The position numbers were made by a program, and so were the translations under genes. Below are positions 1 to 5,312 of a stretch of DNA of 5,373 bases, piece by piece. The notes under the pieces are model-generated. The model was not told where the DNA came from. It saw nothing but the letters and a program-made list of their open reading frames with translations, and ran no database searches. Source of the stretch: a virus (Duplodnaviria > Heunggongvirae > Uroviricota > Caudoviricetes); the IMG/VR virus record IMGVR_UViG_2778261389_000002, positions 1 through 5,373 of that record. One strand, given 5' to 3'. Numbering within the stretch: position 1 is the stretch's first letter; the number at the start of each line of letters is the position of its first letter.

Positions 1-60
1 GTGGCGGCCTCAGTCCGGAACAATTTGAAAACAAGAACCTCGCTTAGGCCTGTGTCCATA

Positions 61-630
61 TTACGTGGGTAGGATCACATATGGTGAATATTCGTTGTCT
101 TGTTTAGTAACGGTGTCTGTCATTGTCCTGATGTAGTCTGCGCTTACCACGTTGTTGTATTCTGTTGCGAAGCAGCATAACAACGTCAGAACATGCTCTG
201 TCGTTATTTCGATCCAGTTGATGTTGAAAAACTCATCGCCTTTTTTATCGTGTTCGGAATCGAAGATGCTTTGGTGGAGGATGTATTTGCCGGATTCCTT
301 GCGCGGTAACTTGATCGCTTTCTGGCGTTCCAACTCCTTGTAAATCTGCATTGCTTCAATTAGTACCGGCCTGCCGTTCATGAAGGGATCGCGCAACCTT
401 ACACGCTGGCCAACTCGACCGGTAATAAAGCTGTTTTCCTCTTCCACCAGCACGATAAAACCCTTTTCCTCTTTTTCTCGCAATTCGCGCAGCAGCTGGA
501 GTTCCATATCGCGGCGGCGTTCAGGGTAGCTGGTCCGCTCAGCCATTATCAGCTCGTTGTTGATCCATGCAGCAGTCATTGACGCCGGTTTACCGACGCT
601 CATCGAAACAACGCATATTTTCTTATCCAT
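61..630 (-). CDS. hypothetical protein, 189 aa, gene downstream of ref
   Basis: Part of track ORF 61..777(-). I place the start at ATG 628-630 (MDKKICVV...), preceded by SD AGGGGG (rc of 635-640) at 4-nt spacing; stop TAA at 61-63. The longer upstream extension in the track would translate through a terminator hairpin and the RBS, so it is rejected. No family recognised from the sequence; by P1 gene order it occupies the slot after ref. Confidence 0.55.
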   Translation of the reverse strand: MDKKICVVSMSVGKPASMTAAWINNELIMAERTSYPERRRDMELQLLRELREKEEKGFIVLVEEENSFITGRVGQRVRLRDPFMNGRPVLIEAMQIYKELERQKAIKLPRKESGKYILHQSIFDSEHDKKGDEFFNINWIEITTEHVLTLLCCFATEYNNVVSADYIRTMTDTVTKQDNEYSPYVILPT

Positions 631-642
631 AGCGCCCCCTAT

Positions 643-669
643 AAAAAAGAAAAGCCACCAGCGGCGGCT
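643..669 (-). terminator. intrinsic-terminator-like hairpin in front of the 189-aa ORF
   Basis: Minus strand reads AGCCGCC-GCT-GGTGGCT (7-bp stem with one G-U pair) followed by TTTTCTTTTTT. The T-tract ends about 12 nt upstream of the ATG at 630. Confidence 0.55.
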
Positions 670-819
670 TAGCAATACAACTGAAGGTAGCGCCCGGTAC
701 TCAGACTGTGCCGTCCATGGAATATTTGAAAAGGGATCCATCCGTACCGGGCATGTGATGATTCTGACTGAAGTCACTTGTCAGTTGTCAATTATTTCAG
801 ATTAAAAATAATATATTTA

Positions 820-1376
820 TTAGTGCATGATGTTTGCCATCTCATAGGCGTCAGCCAGCAATTCCATCTCTGACTTGTTCAGCAAGGTGAATTCTTTCTT
901 GCCTCCAACCACACCATCGGCATGAACGGGGACCAGCCAGGGGTATTTTTCTCTTACTTCAGCCGGTGCTGCATGCTAGTGGTGCCATCTACAAAGGGGC
1001 AATTGCTTTTTGTGACAACCCGGCGCGGTACGACCGGAGATATGGTGCAGAGACACCTCTTCAGATATTACTCCATGCATGTAGCAGGCAATGCAGGGGA
1101 GAGTGCCAAGAGCATTGGCGATGGTCCGTTCCTCCGCCGTCGGTGTTCGCCCCTTCAAGCCACGAGATTTTATTTTTACCGCACTTTTCCGCGTTTTGCT
1201 GGCTGGTGGGCGCTCTTTCTGTTTAGCGATACGGCGGTCGATAGAATCCCGCATTTTCTGATATTGCGATTCTCGCCAGGCGGGGTCAGCCAACTTTTCC
1301 CGTTGCCGATCGCTCGTTCTCTGGCTGCCTTCTGCCACTCGCGGCGCTGTTCAAGTTTTTGTTCGATTGTTTTCAT
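820..1376 (-). pseudogene. ref: ref (P1 recombination enhancement function, HNH endonuclease), disrupted by a frameshift and an in-frame TAG
   Basis: Best start ATG 1374-1376 (MKTIEQKLEQRREW...) lies in the frame of track ORF 1176..1481, which stops at 1176. The HNH core (CIAC...LHHI...CRWHH) is in a different frame (track ORF 976..1338) that overlaps it by 163 nt. That frame hits TAG at 976-978 and then stays open for 51 more codons (HAAPAEVREKYPWLVPVHADGVV...ANIMH) to TAA 820-822. ATG to TAA spans about 185 codons, matching the ~186-aa size I recall for P1 Ref. Position about 2 kb from loxP and the C1-operator promoter upstream fit ref. Confidence 0.6.
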
Positions 1377-1381
1377 ATGGC

Positions 1382-1407
1382 AAAAAAAAGGCGGCCTAAT
1401 GGCCGCC
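1382..1407 (-). terminator. intrinsic-terminator-like hairpin between the ref promoter and the ref ATG
   Basis: Minus strand reads GGCGGCC-ATTA-GGCCGCC (perfect 7-bp GC stem) followed by T8. The T-tract ends 5 nt before the ref ATG. It may terminate cre/cra read-through or act as a leader attenuator. Confidence 0.6.
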
Positions 1408-1465
1408 AATGATGTCAAGGAGTGAAGTAATGGCAACGTCTTCGTAGTTGACAAAAACTGCGGCT

Positions 1466-1491
1466 CAATTATAGCAATCAATTAGAGCAAT
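1466..1491 (-). promoter_or_regulatory. ref promoter (-10 TATAAT) overlapped by a C1 operator (Op2-like)
   Basis: Minus strand has a perfect TATAAT (rc of 1468-1473). Immediately upstream, ATTGCTCTAATTGATTG (rc of 1475-1491) matches the C1 operator consensus at 14/17 with the 11-bp core perfect. Ref is known to be C1-repressed in P1. Confidence 0.65.
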
Positions 1492-1517
1492 TAAAGTTAT
1501 TTATCGCGAATCACATT

Positions 1518-1546
1518 TTTTCATTTCAGTACCTGTGTGCTATACT
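1518..1546 (+). promoter_or_regulatory. candidate + strand promoter with extended -10
   Basis: TGcTATACT at 1538-1546 (TG plus TATACT) with a weak -35 TTTTCA at 1518-1523 and 17-nt spacer. It points at the terminator at 1593-1622. Confidence 0.35.
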
Positions 1547-1552
1547 CCTTCT

Positions 1553-1622
1553 TGATTGATTGGATGCGGAATACAAACCCGCTCTTTTGTGCAGCCTGGC
1601 TCCTTGCCAGGCTTTTTTTATT
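1553..1622 (+). ncRNA. candidate small RNA of about 70 nt (promoter to intrinsic terminator)
   Basis: Predicted start about 1553 after the extended -10. A strong + strand terminator follows: AGCCTGGC-TCCTT-GCCAGGCT (8-bp stem, 1593-1613) then TTTTTTTATTT. No plausible ORF or RBS inside. It lies between the cra-position ORF and the ref promoter. Confidence 0.3.
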
Positions 1623-1929
1623 TCAGCATGGAAGCTGTTAACGCTTTGGACCTTGCTGAACTGATTGAAAGGGCTTTGTCAACGTGCCCCAAAAATTCGC
1701 CAAACTCGGCCATCACTTTGGCAAAACCGCGCCGTGCTTCTTTCTCGGTGGCATTCATCACGAAATGTTCAGCACTACGCATACTTTTGACAGGGAACGC
1801 AACGGATATTGAGTCAATATCAGGCATTCTATCGCTCAGCTTTACAGTGACAATGACGGCTGGCGACTGAATATTAGTGCTTACAGACAGCACTACATAT
1901 TTTCCGTCGATGTTGAAATCCTTTCTCAC
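1618..1929 (-). CDS. hypothetical protein, 103 aa, in the position of P1 cra
   Basis: Track ORF 1618..1929(-) with GTG start and a weak GGTGA SD; the stop lies inside the T-tract of the 1593-1622 hairpin. It sits between cre and ref where P1 carries cra, but I cannot confirm the sequence identity from memory. The antisense + ORF 1556..1870 is less plausible because it would read through the terminator. Confidence 0.4.
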   Translation of the reverse strand: MRKDFNIDGKYVVLSVSTNIQSPAVIVTVKLSDRMPDIDSISVAFPVKSMRSAEHFVMNATEKEARRGFAKVMAEFGEFLGHVDKALSISSARSKALTASMLK

Positions 1930-1945
1930 ATGTCACCATAAATAT

Positions 1946-1962
1946 CAAAGAATTAGAGCAAT
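1946..1962 (-). promoter_or_regulatory. C1 operator-like site between cre and the cra-position ORF
   Basis: rc of 1946-1962 is ATTGCTCTAATTCTTTG: the 11-bp core ATTGCTCTAAT is perfect, 13/17 overall against the consensus. Confidence 0.45.
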
Positions 1963-1979
1963 AATTTACGCGTTAATGG

Positions 1980-3011
1980 CTAATCGCCATCTTCCAGCAG
2001 GCGCACCATTGCCCCTGTTTCACTATCCAGGTTACGGATATAGTTCATGACAATATTTACGTTGGTCCAGCCACCAGCTTGCATGATCTCCGGTAGTGAA
2101 ACTCCGGCGCGGGCCATATCTCGTGCGGCTCCGACACGGGCACTGTGTCCAGACCAGGCCAGGTACCTCTGGCCAGAGTCATCCTTAGCCCCGTAAATCA
2201 ATCGGTGAGTTGCTTCAAAAATCCCTTCCAGGGCGCGAGTTGATAGCTGGCTGGTGGCAGATGGCGCGGCAACACCATTTTTTCTGACACGGCAAAACAA
2301 GTAGTTATTCGGATCATCAGCCACACCAGAGACAGAAATCCATCGCTCAACCAGTTTAGTTACCCCCAGACTAAGTGCCTTCTCTACACCAGCGGTGCTA
2401 ACCAGCGTTTTCGTTCTGCCAATATGGATTAACATTCTCCCACCGTCAGTACGTGAGATATCTTTAACTCTGATCCTAGAAATTTCGGCTATACGTAACA
2501 GGGTGTTATAAGCAATCCCCAGAAATGCCAGATTACGTATATCCTGGCAGCGATCGCTATTTTCCATGAGTGAACGAACCTGGTCGAAATCAGTGCGTTC
2601 GAACGCCAGCGCCTGTTTTGCACGCTCACCGGCATCAACGTTTTCTTTTCGGATCCGTCGGATGACCAGTGAAACAGCATTGCTGTCACTTGGTCGTGGC
2701 AGCCCGGACCGACGATGAAGCATATTTAGCTGGCCCAAATGTTGCTGGATAGTTTTCACTGCCAGACCGCGCGCCTGAAGATATAGAAGATAATCGCGAA
2801 CATCTTCAGGTTCTGCGGGAAACCATTTCCGGTTATTCAACTTGCACCATGCCGCCCATGACCGGCAAACGGACAGAAGCATTTTCCAGGTATGCTCAGA
2901 AAACGCCTGGCGATCCCTGAACATATCCATCAGGTTCTTGCGAACCTCATCACTCGTTGCATCGACCGGCAATGCAGGCAAATTTTGGTGTACGGTCAGT
3001 AAATTGGACAT
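1980..3011 (-). CDS. cre: Cre site-specific tyrosine recombinase
   Basis: 343-aa ORF (MSNLLTVHQNLPALPVDATSDEVRKNLMDMFRDRQAFSEH...MVRLLEDGD) recognised as P1 Cre over its full length. Catalytic-region motifs are present (GHSARVGAARD, GGW, NYI). loxP lies 419 bp upstream. Confidence 0.97.
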   Translation of the reverse strand: MSNLLTVHQNLPALPVDATSDEVRKNLMDMFRDRQAFSEHTWKMLLSVCRSWAAWCKLNNRKWFPAEPEDVRDYLLYLQARGLAVKTIQQHLGQLNMLHRRSGLPRPSDSNAVSLVIRRIRKENVDAGERAKQALAFERTDFDQVRSLMENSDRCQDIRNLAFLGIAYNTLLRIAEISRIRVKDISRTDGGRMLIHIGRTKTLVSTAGVEKALSLGVTKLVERWISVSGVADDPNNYLFCRVRKNGVAAPSATSQLSTRALEGIFEATHRLIYGAKDDSGQRYLAWSGHSARVGAARDMARAGVSLPEIMQAGGWTNVNIVMNYIRNLDSETGAMVRLLEDGD

Positions 3012-3018
3012 TTGACAC

Positions 3019-3240
3019 TCAGATAATGGTTTTAAGTAAAGTGTACAGGATCGGCTCTGCCTTTACCTGTTTATGGTTCTCGTCATAGAAACGCCAACGA
3101 CCGCGACTGCGTTCTATCTTTTCTTCACCGCGCGATAATGACAGTTGACAACTATCACGATCAAACCCTTTCGCCCGCCAGTAACCACGATTTTTCTCAA
3201 GCTCAAGATGAGTGGACACTTTAGCAGCTGAATATCCCAT
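3019..3240 (-). CDS. small ORF (73 aa) directly upstream of cre
   Basis: ATG at 3238-3240 is preceded by SD GAGGTGA at about 4-nt spacing; the stop at 3019-3021 is 7 nt before the cre ATG. The product is basic with no recognisable domain. It could be a real leader ORF or a chance ORF in the cre regulatory region. Confidence 0.35.
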   Translation of the reverse strand: MGYSAAKVSTHLELEKNRGYWRAKGFDRDSCQLSLSRGEEKIERSRGRWRFYDENHKQVKAEPILYTLLKTII

Positions 3241-3337
3241 TTTTCACCTCTGATTGATTGGTGGTGCTAAGTGCGCTACGCGAAATCTGGAGCACTAACA
3301 CTGCCAACATTTCGCAGATTTTACGTAGCGCAACCTT

Positions 3338-3410
3338 GATCAAATGATCAAGTGATCACTATTTGACCTGATAAGGTATTGAGCTGTATGGATTTACAGG
3401 TAAATTGATC
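3338..3410. promoter_or_regulatory. Dam (GATC) site cluster in the cre regulatory region
   Basis: GATC at 3338, 3346, 3354 and 3407; the first three sit in reiterated TGATCA hexamers within 20 bp. P1 cre promoters are reported to be methylation-sensitive. Confidence 0.5.
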
Positions 3411-3429
3411 ATGTTCAATAACCCTTAAG

Positions 3430-3463
3430 ATAACTTCGTATAATGTATGCTATACGAAGTTAT
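3430..3463 (+). other. loxP: loxP site (Cre recombination target)
   Basis: Exact 34-bp ATAACTTCGTATA-ATGTATGC-TATACGAAGTTAT: two 13-bp inverted arms around an 8-bp asymmetric spacer. Confidence 0.97.
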
Positions 3464-3506
3464 TAGGTCTGAAGAGGAGTTTACGTCCAGCTGCGCATAA
3501 AAATCA

Positions 3507-3523
3507 AGAATTATTAGAGCAAT
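3507..3523 (-). promoter_or_regulatory. C1 operator (Op99 family), minus orientation
   Basis: rc of 3507-3523 is ATTGCTCTAATAATTCT, 15/17 against the consensus ATTGCTCTAATAAATTT. Confidence 0.7.
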
Positions 3524-3583
3524 AAATTTTGAGAGAAAAATCCCACTCCACCAGCCAAAAACTGGATTGTTTTTCATAGTTGT

Positions 3584-3610
3584 TTGACAATTGCTCTAAT
3601 AAATTATAGT
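3584..3610 (+). promoter_or_regulatory. immC promoter (P99-like) with overlapping C1 operator
   Basis: -35 TTGACA at 3584-3589 is followed by ATTGCTCTAATAAATTA (3590-3606, 16/17 to consensus) and -10 TATAGT at 3605-3610. It is oriented toward coi and c1, consistent with autoregulation. Confidence 0.75.
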
Positions 3611-3844
3611 TTTGCCGCCGTTACGTAATACGACTTTGGATTCACTATTTAATGTGTCTTCAGCGTTGTAGAGCGGCTCAGAAGGAAATGAGCAAACAGG
3701 GAAACCTTATACAACGGCATTACAGCTATGCATTGCTCATCTTACACACAGCGCAATGTTGTTAGATTACCCCAGCATGGATCATGGGTGAAACAGTAGG
3801 TCAGAGCTTCAGGCTCTGTGTTGTCAATACAGTGAGGCATAATT

Positions 3845-4054
3845 ATGGCTTTCATTCAACCAACCATCGGCGACGTTAGACATTGCTCTAACGCTTTATC
3901 TGTAGACCCTGCCGAAACCGACGCAGCCCGCGCCATTGCTGAACACTACTCAAAGATATCCAATCAGGAGTACCGCATCACCCAAGACGACCTGGATGAC
4001 CTCACTGACACAATCGAATATCTCATGGCAACTAACCAGTTAGACTCACAATAA
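3845..4054 (+). CDS. coi: Coi, C1 inactivator
   Basis: 69-aa ORF (MAFIQPTIGDVRHCSNALSV...) immediately upstream of c1 in the same orientation, with a GAGG SD 7 nt upstream. Size and position match P1 coi. A weak operator-like ATTGCTCTAA core sits inside the gene at 3882-3891. Confidence 0.85.
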   Translation: MAFIQPTIGDVRHCSNALSVDPAETDAARAIAEHYSKISNQEYRITQDDLDDLTDTIEYLMATNQLDSQ

Positions 4055-4097
4055 ATGCACTAATAAATCTATTATTTTCGTTTGATCCCTCTATAAT
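4054..4097 (+). promoter_or_regulatory. operator-like site at the coi stop plus candidate -10 for c1
   Basis: AATGCACTAATAAATCT (4054-4070) matches the C1 operator consensus at 14/17 with two core mismatches. TATAAT at 4092-4097 has no good -35. Confidence 0.35.
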
Positions 4098-4164
4098 ATA
4101 GGTCAGTAATGACCGGTTTTCTCAGCCGGGCGTTATTGACCATGTCAATTCTGGAGGAGGATCA

Positions 4165-5016
4165 ATGATAAATTATGTCTACGGCGAACAACTGTACCAG
4201 GAGTTCGTCAGCTTCAGGGATCTCTTTCTAAAAAAAGCTGTTGCACGCGCCCAACACGTTGATACAGCCAGCGACGGTCGTCCTGTACGCCCGGTTGTCG
4301 TTCTACCGTTCAAAGAAACTGACAGCATTCAGGCTGAAATTGATAAATGGACTTTAATGGCGCGGGAACTGGAACAGTACCCAGACCTCAATATCCCAAA
4401 GACTATTTTATATCCAGTGCCTAACATCCTTCGCGGTGTGCGTAAGGTTACAACTTATCAGACAGAAGCTGTGAACAGCGTCAACATGACCGCTGGCCGC
4501 ATTATTCATCTGATTGATAAGGACATTCGCATCCAAAAAAGCGCGGAGATCAATGAGCACAGTGCGAAATACATAGAGAACCTGGAAGCAACAAAAGAGC
4601 TAATGAAGCAGTACCCGGAGGATGAAAAATTCCGTATGCGCGTACACGGCTTTAGCGAAACAATGCTGCGCGTCCACTACATTTCCAGTAGCCCTAACTA
4701 CAATGATGGTAAATCAGTTAGTTACCATGTGCCACTGTGTGGCGTGTTTATCTGCGATGAAACTCTCCGTGATGGAATTATCATCAACGGTGAATTCGAA
4801 AAAGCAAAATTTAGCCTTTATGACTCCATAGAACCGATCATCTGCGACCGCTGGCCGCAAGCAAAAATATATCGCCTGGCAGATATTGAAAATGTAAAAA
4901 AACAAATTGCCATCACTCGCGAAGAGAAAAAGGTTAAGTCAGCCGCATCAGTTACGCGCAGCCGTAAAACCAAGAAGGGGCAGCCAGTAAACGACAACCC
5001 CGAAAGCGCGCAATAA
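4165..5016 (+). CDS. c1: C1 repressor of lytic functions
   Basis: 283-aa ORF (MINYVYGEQLYQEFVSFRDLFLKK...NDNPESAQ) recognised as P1 C1. Strong SD GGAGGAGG at 4153-4160 sits 4 nt before the ATG. It lies downstream of coi and the operator-controlled promoter. Confidence 0.95.
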   Translation: MINYVYGEQLYQEFVSFRDLFLKKAVARAQHVDTASDGRPVRPVVVLPFKETDSIQAEIDKWTLMARELEQYPDLNIPKTILYPVPNILRGVRKVTTYQTEAVNSVNMTAGRIIHLIDKDIRIQKSAEINEHSAKYIENLEATKELMKQYPEDEKFRMRVHGFSETMLRVHYISSSPNYNDGKSVSYHVPLCGVFICDETLRDGIIINGEFEKAKFSLYDSIEPIICDRWPQAKIYRLADIENVKKQIAITREEKKVKSAASVTRSRKTKKGQPVNDNPESAQ

Positions 5017-5053: not shown

Positions 5054-5312
5054 CAGCCGCCACCGGTTTTAACAAGCCAGCATCGAGCAGTTTACGCGTC
5101 AACCACTGCTGGCCTTTACCCGTTAATTGAGGCGTCAACCGTATCTGGTAGCCATCTTCATCATCCAGCACCACTTCTTTCACCGTGAAATACCCCGCGT
5201 TGATGTACTGCTGGAACGGTACATTTTTACGGCCTCCGGACGCTATCAGAATGCCGTTCTCCCGTAACCAGGCAAACAGCGCATTTTGTTTAAGTCGGGG
5301 TTTGAGGGCCAA
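5049..5312 (-). CDS. KilAC/ANT-like domain ORF (87 aa), probably a 5'-truncated remnant
   Basis: Track ORF 5049..5312(-). The motif pattern (NALFAWLRENGIL...NVPFQQYINAGYF...TPQLTGKGQQWLTRKLL) resembles the C-terminal KilAC/ANT domain of phage antirepressors, judged by eye. It has no ATG (only TTG at 5310-5312) and no SD, and all three minus frames are closed by stops in 5313-5373. Confidence 0.4.
   Translation of the reverse strand: MALKPRLKQNALFAWLRENGILIASGGRKNVPFQQYINAGYFTVKEVVLDDEDGYQIRLTPQLTGKGQQWLTRKLLDAGLLKPVAAE

What the first reader, a model, noticed from the sequence alone, without database searches (positions are those of the whole stretch)
1518..1622. Candidate ~70-nt small RNA between the cra-position ORF and the ref promoter
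An extended -10 promoter (TGcTATACT) is followed about 50 nt later by a textbook + strand intrinsic terminator (8-bp GC-rich stem, U-tract) with no coding potential between. It is antisense to the 3' end and 3' UTR of the upstream minus-strand ORF, and transcription from it would collide with cre/cra read-through heading for ref. I do not recall an annotated sRNA here in P1.
Basis: seen in the sequence. Interest (0 to 1): 0.5.

Follow-up and report, generated by a model that had tools for sequence, protein, structure and literature searches.

The report
Unannotated conserved small RNA in P1
Just downstream of the c8 gene, P1-type phage-plasmids carry a small non-coding RNA gene of about 65 bases that no genome record annotates, and its conserved 5' end matches a short motif at the start of several phage genes, including the cra-cre operon, so it probably regulates them.

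Summary
On the + strand there is an extended -10 promoter (TGTGcTATACT, 1536-1546) and an 8-bp GC-rich hairpin (1593-1613) followed by a U-tract. Together they bound a non-coding unit of about 65 nt (about 1553-1619).

Comparative data make this much more than a chance match:
- Among 53 distinct P1-like sequences it is the least variable stretch in 1.4 kb (diversity 0.008, against 0.077 in c8).
- Two distant clades (C8 only 36-50% identical) have the same layout in the same place and orientation: TGnTATAnT, 6-7 nt, GAUUGAUUG(G/U), a hairpin of different sequence, GUGCAG or GAGCAG, a terminator, and a U-tract.
- The terminator stem shows two compensatory pair changes. Its G-U pairs form only on this strand. 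In one clade the RNA folds at -26.9 kcal/mol on this strand and -13.1 on the other.

The complement of the seed, CCAATCAATC, occurs 5-6 times in each of the P1 and JK004 genomes (about 0.3 expected). Almost all copies lie at translation starts.

No record, Rfam family or searchable paper describes this RNA. The best reading is a new phage small RNA that acts in trans through its seed, with a possible antisense role in cis. No transcript data were available, so expression is untested.

The parts
1518..1523 (+). -35-like hexamer TTTTCA, weak and probably dispensable
   Evidence: 17-nt spacer to TATACT. It varies in some P1-like sequences. One relative (L007) loses homology just upstream of the extended -10. 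There is no counterpart in the JK004 or L178 clades.
1536..1546 (+). Extended -10 promoter TGTGcTATACT (TG 1538-1539, TATACT 1541-1546)
   Evidence: TATACT is invariant in all P1-like sequences. The TG is lost (TG to TA) in L003, L005 and L006. The JK004 clade has TGaTATACT and L178 has TGtTATAGT, each 6-7 nt upstream of the seed.
1553..1563 (+). Predicted 5' end and seed UGAUUGAUUGG; transcription start inferred at 1553-1555
   Evidence: GATTGATTGG is present in most P1-like loci. It is conserved in the JK004-like loci and as GATTGATTGT in L178. Nucleotides 1-8 or 1-9 are unpaired in the predicted folds of all clades. The start site is inferred from the spacing to the -10 and has not been mapped.
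1562..1585 (+). Hairpin 1 (GGA.GCGG / CCGCUCU)
   Evidence: A hairpin sits at the same position in the other clades with unrelated sequence. In L178 it has 11 bp including 4 G-U pairs, so it forms only on this strand. In all clades its base pairs with the last 2-3 nt of the seed.
1586..1592 (+). U-rich single-stranded linker UUUGUGC; GUGCAG is conserved across clades (GAGCAG in L178)
1593..1619 (+). Intrinsic terminator: 8-bp stem (1593-1600/1606-1613), loop 1601-1605, U-tract 1614-1619
   Evidence: Across 18 distinct sequences from three clades, all 144 stem cells pair on this strand. Two pairs carry compensatory changes and one switches between G-C and G-U. The other clades have a GAAA loop. 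A U-rich tail is kept in all clades. On the c8 strand there is no U-tract, and the G-U pair becomes an A-C mismatch.
1618..1929 (-). c8 ORF (context); only its stop codon overlaps the RNA's 3' end
   Evidence: The window's C8 is 92% identical to P1 C8.
3251..3261 (-). Candidate trans target CCAAUCAAUCA at -21 to -11 of the cra start codon (ATG 3240-3238), next to the Shine-Dalgarno sequence GAGGUG (3250-3245)
   Evidence: Exact 11-nt complement of 1553-1563 (repeat D20). It is conserved in nearly all P1-like loci that reach it. Equivalent sites precede the first gene of the cra-cre-c8 operon in JK004-like loci and in L178.

Best explanation
This is a real, independently transcribed, non-coding small RNA gene of P1-type phage-plasmids. 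RNA polymerase starts at about 1553-1555 from an extended -10 promoter and stops at the hairpin and U-tract around 1617-1620. The product is about 65 nt and has four parts: an unpaired 5' seed (U)GAUUGAUUGG, hairpin 1, a U-rich linker, and a terminator hairpin with a poly-U tail.

I propose that the seed pairs in trans with the motif CCAAUCAAUC(A), which lies at or next to the ribosome-binding region of a small set of phage mRNAs:
- In P1: cra (first gene of cra-cre when transcribed from P3cre), an unannotated 29-codon ORF in the C1-controlled pmgT leader, and codons 7-10 of pmgS.
- In JK004: the equivalent genes plus a ref-like gene.

Pairing there would most likely reduce translation or destabilise the mRNA. 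Because the RNA is also fully complementary to c8 read-through transcripts heading for ref, it may in addition act in cis on them.

Shown in silico: conservation, architecture, strand specificity, and enrichment and placement of the motif. Inferred: transcription itself, the exact ends, Hfq dependence, and the direction and size of any regulatory effect.
For: 1. Constraint. Nucleotide diversity over 1553-1620 is 0.008, against 0.077 in c8, 0.045 in ref and 0.073 in the ref promoter and operator. Six of 68 columns vary, against 84 of 309 in c8 (Fisher p = 9e-4) and 174 of 477 in ref (p = 2e-6).

2. Same architecture in distant clades, found through C8 or gene_62 protein homology and not through the RNA. 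These are Cronobacter phage JK004 and Salmonella arizonae plasmid CP053320 (C8 47-49% identical) and contig L178 (C8 36%, Cre 65%). Each has TGnTATAnT, 6-7 nt, GATTGATTG(G/T), a hairpin, G(T/A)GCAG, a terminator and a T-rich tail, antisense and just downstream of the c8 operon.

3. Terminator stem. All cells pair on this strand; two pairs carry compensatory double changes; one pair switches between G-C and G-U.

4. Strand asymmetry. L178 folds at -26.9 against -13.1 kcal/mol, and the JK004-like sequences are 3-7 kcal/mol more stable on the RNA strand. The GNRA loop and the U-tract exist only on this strand.

5. Seed motif. Exact CCAATCAATC occurs 5 times in P1 and 6 times in JK004, against 0.31 and 0.28 expected (maximum 2 in 100 first-order Markov simulations). 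Leaving out the copy at the RNA locus itself, 3 of 4 P1 copies and 5 of 5 JK004 copies are on the sense strand between -26 and +30 of a start codon. pmgS and the pmgT-leader ORF carry it in both clades.

6. Seed and target change together between lineages. JK004 has GGCU in the RNA and AGCC in the target. The L087 type has GGUU(U) and AACC or AAACC. L178 has seed ...UUGU with target GCAAUC..., a G-C to U-G change.

7. Not annotated and not in Rfam. No paper found.
Against: - No expression data of any kind could be examined, so the start and end of the RNA are predictions.
- Within P1-like genomes the stems never vary, so all covariation comes from comparing only three clades, which means few independent events.
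- P1-like sequences show no strand asymmetry in folding energy.
- The rare seed variants in P1-like loci (GATTGATTGA...GT, GATTAATTGG) are not matched by changes at the cra site.
- The seed motif together with a Shine-Dalgarno-like AAGGAG also reads as a leader cassette on the c8 strand. The motif could therefore be a sense-strand signal in its own right.
- An energy-only duplex scan of P1 and JK004 did not rank the motif sites clearly above GC-rich chance matches.
- cre also has internal promoters (P1cre and P2cre) whose transcripts lack the cra site, so any effect on Cre may be small.
Confidence: 0.72

Rival explanations
1. The conserved block works on the c8 (minus) strand and there is no small RNA. 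On this reading it is a 3' UTR or leader element: hairpins that stabilise the c8 mRNA 3' end, followed by the same 'CCAAUCAAUCA + Shine-Dalgarno' cassette seen in other leaders. That cassette would be read by a protein or the ribosome. The antisense promoter would be coincidental.
For: On the minus strand the order is hairpin, hairpin, CCAATCAATCA, AGAAGGAG. This mirrors the cra and pmgT leaders, which have a hairpin, the motif, a Shine-Dalgarno sequence and ATG. In JK004 and L178 the next gene starts 35-45 nt after the motif. P1-like sequences fold equally well on both strands.
Against: - P1-like genomes have no start codon after the AAGGAG.
- The U-tract, the GNRA loop and the G-U pairs are specific to the + strand.
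- Hairpin 1 of L178 collapses on the c8 strand (-13.1 against -26.9 kcal/mol).
- TGnTATAnT keeps a fixed 6-7 nt distance from the motif in three clades whose flanks are otherwise unalignable.
Confidence: 0.12
2. The hairpin and U-tract form a + strand terminator whose job is to stop antisense transcription from entering c8-cre, or to cause interference with c8-to-ref read-through. Any short RNA made is a by-product with no trans targets, and the motif matches are unrelated.
For: The terminator is strong and conserved. The RNA is fully complementary to read-through transcripts. The cra site does not co-vary with seed variants inside the P1-like group. The energy scan was not discriminating.
Against: A pure terminator does not explain near-invariance of the 40 nt upstream of it. 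It does not explain conservation of the 10-nt 5' sequence across clades while hairpin 1 diverges completely. It does not explain the roughly 17-21-fold excess of the complementary motif, placed at translation starts of orthologous genes in two clades.
Confidence: 0.12
3. It encodes a small protein (the 25-34 codon ORF from ATG 1564 or GTG 1537 to 1641) rather than a non-coding RNA.
For: The ORF exists, and its product would be hydrophobic (MRNTNPLFCAAWLLARLFLFQHGSC).
Against: There is no Shine-Dalgarno sequence. The ORF reads through the terminator. The T-run length varies from 5 to 11 between relatives, which shifts the frame. No equivalent ORF exists in the JK004 or L178 clades.
Confidence: 0.02
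4. It is a chance juxtaposition of a promoter-like and a terminator-like match.
For: Promoter-like matches in the window are no more frequent than in shuffled sequence.
Against: All the comparative evidence above.
Confidence: 0.02

Closest known systems
Phage lambda OOP RNA (from my own knowledge, not tested here)
   Same: A short RNA (about 77 nt) with its own constitutive promoter and intrinsic terminator. It is transcribed convergently to, and ends at, the 3' end of a gene involved in establishing lysogeny (cII there; c8, the putative 'lysogeny establishment protein', here).
   Different: OOP overlaps about 50 nt of cII coding sequence and acts in cis through RNase III. This RNA overlaps only the c8 stop codon. 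Its conserved part is a 5' seed whose complement is scattered over other genes. There is no sequence or Rfam similarity.
P1/P7 C4 antisense RNA of the immI region (from my own knowledge; mentioned in 10.64898/2025.12.28.696737)
   Same: The same phage family. It is a small RNA of about 70-80 nt that represses by pairing short sequences with a ribosome-binding region. This shows that P1 uses RNA-based control.
   Different: C4 is cut out of a longer transcript of its own target operon in immI. This RNA lies about 40 kb away between c8 and ref, has its own promoter and terminator, and has a different sequence. No Rfam family reached its gathering score anywhere in the window or in the three related loci scanned.
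Prophage-encoded trans-acting seed small RNAs, for example the Shiga-toxin phage StxS (PMC7547250), the phage small RNA described in bioRxiv 10.1101/2024.10.31.621285, and Gifsy-1 IsrK (PMC4825925), all listed
   Same: A short phage-borne RNA with a terminator hairpin and poly-U tail, and a conserved single-stranded seed that could pair near ribosome-binding sites.
   Different: The targets described for those RNAs include host genes, and several arise by early termination of longer transcripts. Here the predicted targets are phage-plasmid genes and the RNA has a dedicated promoter. Hfq binding is unknown.
Rfam SorX (RF02784), the best Rfam match
   Same: Two hairpins plus a terminator of similar size. 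Score 22.6 bits over 1545-1619 on the + strand.
   Different: The score is far below the gathering threshold of 46.6. The similarity lies essentially in the generic GC-rich terminator. SorX is an alphaproteobacterial small RNA. This RNA is not a member.

Membership tests
Independently transcribed, intrinsically terminated non-coding small RNA gene | Own promoter at a suitable distance upstream of the RNA body | tested here: met
   The extended -10 TGnTATAnT is conserved in three clades, 6-7 nt from the conserved 5' sequence. Promoter activity has not been measured.
Independently transcribed, intrinsically terminated non-coding small RNA gene | Rho-independent terminator on the same strand | tested here: met
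   8-bp stem plus U-tract. All cells pair, two pairs are compensatory, and the G-U pair is strand-specific.
Independently transcribed, intrinsically terminated non-coding small RNA gene | No conserved reading frame | tested here: met
   The ORF through the terminator is shifted by T-run length variation and is absent in the other clades.
Independently transcribed, intrinsically terminated non-coding small RNA gene | A discrete transcript is detectable | not testable with these tools
   No RNA-seq, Northern or end-mapping data were accessible. Literature searches found none for this locus.
Hfq-type trans-encoded seed small RNA | Conserved single-stranded seed | tested here: met
   GAUUGAUU(GG) is unpaired at the 5' end in all predicted folds and conserved across three clades, while the rest diverges.
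Hfq-type trans-encoded seed small RNA | Complementary sites at translation-initiation regions of target mRNAs, conserved across relatives | tested here: met
   The motif occurs 5-6 times per genome against about 0.3 expected. Copies lie at -26 to +30 of start codons, and orthologous sites (pmgS, pmgT leader, first gene of the cre operon) occur in P1 and JK004. Regulation itself is untested, and flank covariation is limited to a few events.
Hfq-type trans-encoded seed small RNA | 3' poly-U tail and U-rich linker suitable for binding the Hfq proximal face | tested here: met
   The terminator is followed by 6 U in the window. Including the stem-closing T, the T-run is 5-11 long in P1-like relatives. 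The linker is CUCUUUUGUGC.
Hfq-type trans-encoded seed small RNA | Binding to Hfq and Hfq-dependent stability or function | not testable with these tools
   Needs co-immunoprecipitation, RIL-seq or half-life measurement in an hfq mutant.
P1/P7 C4 antisense RNA (immI) | Match to the curated covariance model, and location in the c4-icd-ant operon | tested here: not met
   No Rfam family reached gathering score in the window or in the P1 locus L001. The locus lies between c8 and ref, not in immI.
Lambda OOP-type cis-antisense RNA | Extensive overlap with the coding 3' end of the convergent target gene | tested here: not met
   Only the c8 stop codon (1618-1620) is overlapped. The RNA is complementary to the region downstream of c8 only.
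Type I toxin-antitoxin antisense RNA | RNA overlaps a small hydrophobic toxin ORF on the other strand | tested here: not met
   P1-like genomes have no such ORF opposite the RNA. In JK004 and L178 a 52-56-aa membrane ORF ends where the terminator begins, with no substantial overlap.
Rfam SorX (RF02784) | Score at or above the gathering threshold | tested here: not met
   22.6 bits against 46.6.

The most novel reading that the evidence does not exclude
P1-family phage-plasmids carry a second RNA-based control circuit besides C4. A constitutively made 65-nt seed RNA would hold down a dispersed set of phage genes through one 10-11-nt motif at their ribosome-binding regions. The set includes cra-cre from the Dam-controlled P3cre promoter, the C1-controlled pmgT leader peptide, pmgS, and ref-like genes in relatives. 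On this reading the conserved non-coding block, rather than (or as well as) the C8 protein, could be what matters in the region labelled 'c8 / lysogeny establishment'.
Probability: 0.4. Interest if true: 0.75.

Novelty: new member of a known kind. Interest (0 to 1): 0.6.

Why it matters
P1 is a founding model of phage genetics, the source of Cre-lox, and the prototype of phage-plasmids, which are common in clinical Enterobacteria. The element is present in 695 of 5,426 complete E. coli genomes.

Its genome has carried a detailed regulatory annotation since 2004, yet that annotation shows nothing on this strand. If the RNA is real, several things follow:
- It adds a regulator to the cre/c8/ref corner of the genome and gives a testable handle on the poorly understood c8 region.
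- It suggests post-transcriptional control of cra-cre and of two morphogenesis-region genes.
- It provides a compact natural seed-and-motif pair that could matter when P1 parts are used in engineering.

It is also a clean example of finding a phage small RNA by comparing architecture across clades that can no longer be aligned at the sequence level.

Tried and rejected
1. Rfam. There was nothing at gathering score. The SorX-like hit (22.6 bits) and an mmgR-like hit (22.9 bits, on the ref leader) are generic terminator matches.

2. Literature. I searched for a P1 transcript map, a P1 small RNA, and the hairpin or seed sequences themselves. Nothing was relevant. The P1 genome paper (PMC523184) is not held.

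3. Covariation inside the P1-like group. The stems are invariant, so there is no signal. Only pair 1563/1584 varies, with mixed outcomes (G-C, A-U, G-U, A-C, G-A, U-C).

4. Strand asymmetry in P1-like sequences: neutral, within +/-1.5 kcal/mol for most.

5. Energy-only duplex scan of P1 and JK004 with the first 17-18 nt. It was dominated by GC-rich matches to nucleotides that are buried in hairpin 1, so it was not discriminating.

6. Compensatory change at the cra site for rare P1-like seed variants: none found.

7. C1 operator at the RNA promoter. Only a 9 of 17 match to the operator consensus as I recall it, so rejected (my own reading of the sequence).

8. Pattern scan of viral contigs for TATACT-N7-GATTGATTGG outside P1. 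Most of the 27 hits were chance. It gave one new true member, L116.

9. Metagenome scan with a C8 profile. It gave only P1-like loci plus one JK004-like locus, and no intermediate clades. The genome-contig scan gave 3 loci.

10. More distant gene_62 homologues (L179-L191) lack cre and c8, and I found no counterpart of the RNA there.

11. My first multi-clade alignment (A2) used wrong coordinates for six loci and was discarded. A3 replaces it.

Full report
**Context**

The window is a P1-type phage-plasmid segment, inverted relative to the P1 reference. The minus strand carries, in order:
- cra (3240-3019)
- cre (3011-1980)
- c8 (1929-1618)
- the C1-controlled ref promoter and operator (about 1470-1500)
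- ref (from 1376)
- mat

loxP is at 3430-3463, and c1 (4165-5016) is on the + strand. The window is 99.7% identical over 78-5015 to the E. coli AW1.7 plasmid pAW1.7_1, a degraded P1-derived IncY plasmid, and about 96% identical to P1.

**Check of the observation**

Everything described is present:
- TTTTCA (1518-1523), a 17-nt spacer, then TG-c-TATACT (1538-1546).
- A stem AGCCTGGC/GCCAGGCT (1593-1600/1606-1613) with a 5-nt loop and six further T (1614-1619), on the + strand.
- The 69-nt RNA from 1553 folds into two hairpins at -23.2 kcal/mol (z = -3.5).

On the c8 strand the same hairpin is preceded by an A-run and followed by GCACAAAAG, so it is not a canonical terminator in that direction.

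Promoter-like and terminator-like matches as such are not rarer than in shuffled sequence. The case therefore rests on comparison with relatives. An ORF does run through the terminator. It has no Shine-Dalgarno sequence, and it is shifted by T-run length differences between relatives: the run of T, including the one that closes the stem, is 5 to 11 long.

**Conservation within P1-like elements**

I retrieved loci through the C8 protein, which is independent of the RNA, and aligned them.
- 54 distinct sequences of the c8-ref spacer were aligned.
- 53 distinct sequences of a 1.4-kb stretch were aligned.
- The interval from about 1530 to 1660 is the least variable part of the whole stretch.
- Diversity over 1553-1620 is 0.008, against 0.077 in c8, 0.045 in ref, 0.040 in the ref leader and 0.073 in the ref promoter and operator.
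- Six of 68 columns vary, against 84 of 309 in c8 and 174 of 477 in ref (Fisher p = 9e-4 and 2e-6).
- TATACT and the terminator stem never vary. The loop and the T-run length do.

Because the stems are invariant, there is no covariation inside this group, and folding energy does not favour either strand.

The element is present in 700 PLSDB plasmids and in 695 of 5,426 complete E. coli genomes. Nearly all copies are on plasmids, and only the c8 protein is annotated under the match. The richly annotated P1 record (535 features) and the P7 and phiW39 records show nothing on this strand.

**Distant clades**

A protein search with C8 found homologues of 47-49% identity in Cronobacter phage JK004 and a Salmonella arizonae plasmid. 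A search with the first gene of the JK004 operon (gene_62) found a third clade, contig L178, with Cre 65% and C8 36% identical to the window.

In all of them the gene order is ...cra-cre-c8-(small membrane ORF). Immediately downstream, on the antisense strand, lies the same architecture:

| Clade | Extended -10 | Spacer | 5' sequence | Linker | Terminator stem and loop | Tail |
|---|---|---|---|---|---|---|
| P1-like | TGcTATACT | 7 nt | GATTGATTGG | GTGCAG | AGCCTGGC-TCCTT-GCCAGGCT | T-run |
| JK004-like | TGaTATACT | 7 nt | GATTGATTGG | GTGCAG | AGCCCGGC-GAAA-GCTGGGCT | T-rich |
| L178 | TGtTATAGT | 6 nt | GATTGATTGT | GAGCAG | AGGCCGGC-GAAA-GCTGGCCT | T6 |

Each also has a hairpin of clade-specific sequence between the 5' sequence and the linker.

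**Structure and strand**

On an alignment of 18 distinct sequences from the three clades (A3), I counted the 8 terminator pairs:
- All 144 cells pair on this strand.
- Two pairs show changes on both sides (U-A to C-G; C-G to G-C).
- One pair alternates between G-C and G-U. The G-U would be a C-A mismatch on the c8 strand.
- Structures slid by one to three columns pair in only 12-63% of cells.

Hairpin 1 is kept as a structure while its sequence is unrelated between clades. In L178 it has 11 pairs, four of them G-U.

| Sequence | RNA strand (kcal/mol) | Opposite strand (kcal/mol) |
|---|---|---|
| L178 | -26.9 | -13.1 |
| L087 | -27.1 | -20.5 |
| L116 | -28.8 | -24.9 |
| JK004 | -26.0 | -22.7 |

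.

**The 5' seed and its complement**

With the -10 at 1541-1546, transcription should start at 1553-1555. The RNA would then begin (U)GAUUGAUUGG. These nucleotides are unpaired in every predicted fold, except that the last two or three form the base of hairpin 1.

The exact complement CCAATCAATCA lies at 3261-3251 on the minus strand. That is positions -21 to -11 of the cra start codon, directly next to its Shine-Dalgarno sequence (repeat D20). It is conserved in nearly all P1-like loci.

An 11-mer repeat alone is unremarkable in 5.4 kb, since four other exact repeats of 11-14 nt exist in the window. Whole genomes give a different picture. Exact CCAATCAATC occurs 5 times in P1 and 6 times in JK004, against 0.31 and 0.28 expected (maximum 2 in 100 first-order Markov simulations).

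P1 copies, apart from the RNA locus:
- cra, at -21 to -12.
- pmgS, at +21 to +30.
- An unannotated 29-codon hydrophobic ORF in the leader of pmgT, at -25 to -15. It lies downstream of the C1 operator OpmgT (Op88) and a hairpin.
- One copy antisense inside dbn.

JK004 copies, apart from the RNA locus, are all five on the sense strand next to start codons:
- gene_62, the first gene of the operon that contains cra, cre and c8.
- The pmgS homologue, at the same codons as in P1.
- The homologous small ORF at the pmgT-leader position.
- The start of gene_104.
- A ref-like gene, where the motif abuts the ATG just after a terminator.

The flanks of these sites share nothing beyond the 10-11-mer and a purine-rich Shine-Dalgarno sequence, so they are not copies of a longer repeat.

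Between lineages the RNA and the operon-start site change together:

| Lineage | RNA sequence | Target sequence | Pairing |
|---|---|---|---|
| JK004 | ...GGCU | AGCC... | 12 bp |
| L087 type | ...GGUU(U) | AACC or AAACC | 10-13 bp |
| L178 | ...UUGU | GCAAUC... | G-C replaced by U-G |

. These are few events, and inside the P1-like group rare seed variants are not compensated. An energy-only scan did not separate the motif sites from GC-rich chance matches. I therefore hold the trans-target model at roughly even odds. The existence of the RNA gene itself seems considerably more likely than not.

**Mechanism proposed**

- Shown in silico: a conserved extended -10 promoter; a conserved 5' single-stranded decamer; a structurally conserved hairpin 1; a terminator with covariation and strand-specific wobble pairs; strong purifying selection on the non-coding stretch; and enrichment and start-site placement of the complementary motif.
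- Inferred: the RNA is made, probably also in lysogens, because the C1 operator Oref lies about 27 bp upstream of the -35 and no operator overlaps the promoter. It ends at the U-tract. It pairs through its 5' end with CCAAUCAAUC next to or just inside ribosome-binding regions and lowers translation or stability. Being complementary to c8-to-ref read-through RNA, it may also act in cis on that RNA.
- Caveat: the effect on Cre may be partial, because cre also has the internal promoters P1cre and P2cre.

**Comparison with known systems**

- In layout it most resembles lambda OOP, with its own promoter and terminator, convergent to the 3' end of a lysogeny-establishment gene. It overlaps only the stop codon of c8, so it fails the defining overlap feature.
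- It is unrelated in place, origin and sequence to the P1/P7 C4 RNA.
- It fits the general class of phage-borne seed small RNAs with a terminator and poly-U tail. Hfq dependence cannot be tested here.
- No Rfam family reaches threshold; the best match is SorX at 22.6 against 46.6 bits.
- Searches of the open literature, including searches for the sequences themselves, found no description. The 2004 P1 genome paper could not be read, so prior mention in closed literature cannot be excluded.

**Verdict**

This is a new member of a known kind: a phage-encoded small regulatory RNA, with a plausible and testable regulon. The main gap is the complete absence of transcript data.

Noticed in passing
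window 1390-1407 (- strand), T-run 1382-1389; also L088 about 5620-5665: A strong minus-strand intrinsic terminator (GGCGGCC-ATTA-GGCCGCC followed by T8) sits between the C1-controlled P2ref promoter and the ref start codon (1376), which has no obvious Shine-Dalgarno sequence. The predicted P1ref -10 abuts the hairpin, so P1ref transcripts would start inside it. P2ref plus this terminator would give a leader RNA of about 80 nt (weak Rfam mmgR-like hit, 22.9 bits). JK004-like elements also have a terminator directly before their ref-like gene. This may be attenuation or antitermination control of ref.
   Followed up: partly
window 820-1376 (- strand): ref is a pseudogene here. The reading frame shifts after about codon 23 (MKTIEQKLEQRREWQKAARERAI...), and a CAG to TAG change creates a stop at ...CRWHH*HAAP. 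No CDS is listed at this position in the near-identical plasmid.
   Followed up: yes
window 1-77 and beyond 5016: The first 77 bases match a different place in pAW1.7_1 (8988-9064, just past the end of an annotated IS3-family transposase gene), which suggests an insertion-sequence junction truncating the mat/res side. After c1 (past 5016) the window departs from both P1 and pAW1.7_1, and 5065-5296 resembles the 3' end of ant1 at 85%. The source is a rearranged, degraded P1-derived plasmid.
   Followed up: partly
P1 AF234172 84392-84481 (L196 2093-2182; OP279344 about 80654-80743): An unannotated 29-codon hydrophobic ORF (MNTAFKIIMAAIYFWLFSITFGGIVAHG) with a good Shine-Dalgarno sequence lies in the pmgT leader. 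It is downstream of the C1 operator OpmgT/Op88 and a hairpin, and the CCAATCAATCA motif precedes it. JK004 has a homologous arrangement, in frame with an N-terminally extended gene_94.
   Followed up: partly
L087 about 3036-3061, L086 about 3031-3056, L116 (JK004-like loci): In the JK004 clade the RNA's -10 sits in the centre of an inverted repeat (GCGAATGA-TGTGATATAC-TCATTCGC). In L116 both arms change together (GCGGATG...CATCCGC). This suggests an operator for a dimeric repressor over the promoter, or a hairpin in the sense-strand transcript. P1-like sequences have no counterpart.
   Followed up: no
L003, L005, L006 (closest C8 relatives of the window): These sequences carry both a TG to TA change in the extended -10 and a change of the last seed G to A (GATTGATTGA). 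This may be early decay of the RNA gene in that lineage, or simply tolerated variation.
   Followed up: no
L007 (IMGVR_UViG_3300029219_000206): Homology to the window ends at about window 1532. Unrelated sequence is joined just upstream of CCTGTGTGCTATACT, so the extended -10, the RNA and c8 are kept but the -35 is not.
   Followed up: no
P1 OP279344 about 69779-69788 (- strand motif, inside dbn): One exact CCAATCAATC copy lies antisense within dbn, away from any start codon. The target model does not explain it.
   Followed up: no
window 3272-3289 / 3315-3332 and JK004-like operon leaders: An 18-nt inverted repeat (TGCGCTACGCGAAATCTG / CAGATTTTACGTAGCGCA) lies upstream of the cra motif. Related TTCACGTAGCGCA sequences recur upstream of the motif in JK004-like operon leaders. 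It may be a shared regulatory site of the cra-cre promoter region.
   Followed up: no
L178 710-1904 (- strand): Four tRNA genes lie upstream of the cre operon in the third-clade contig.
   Followed up: no
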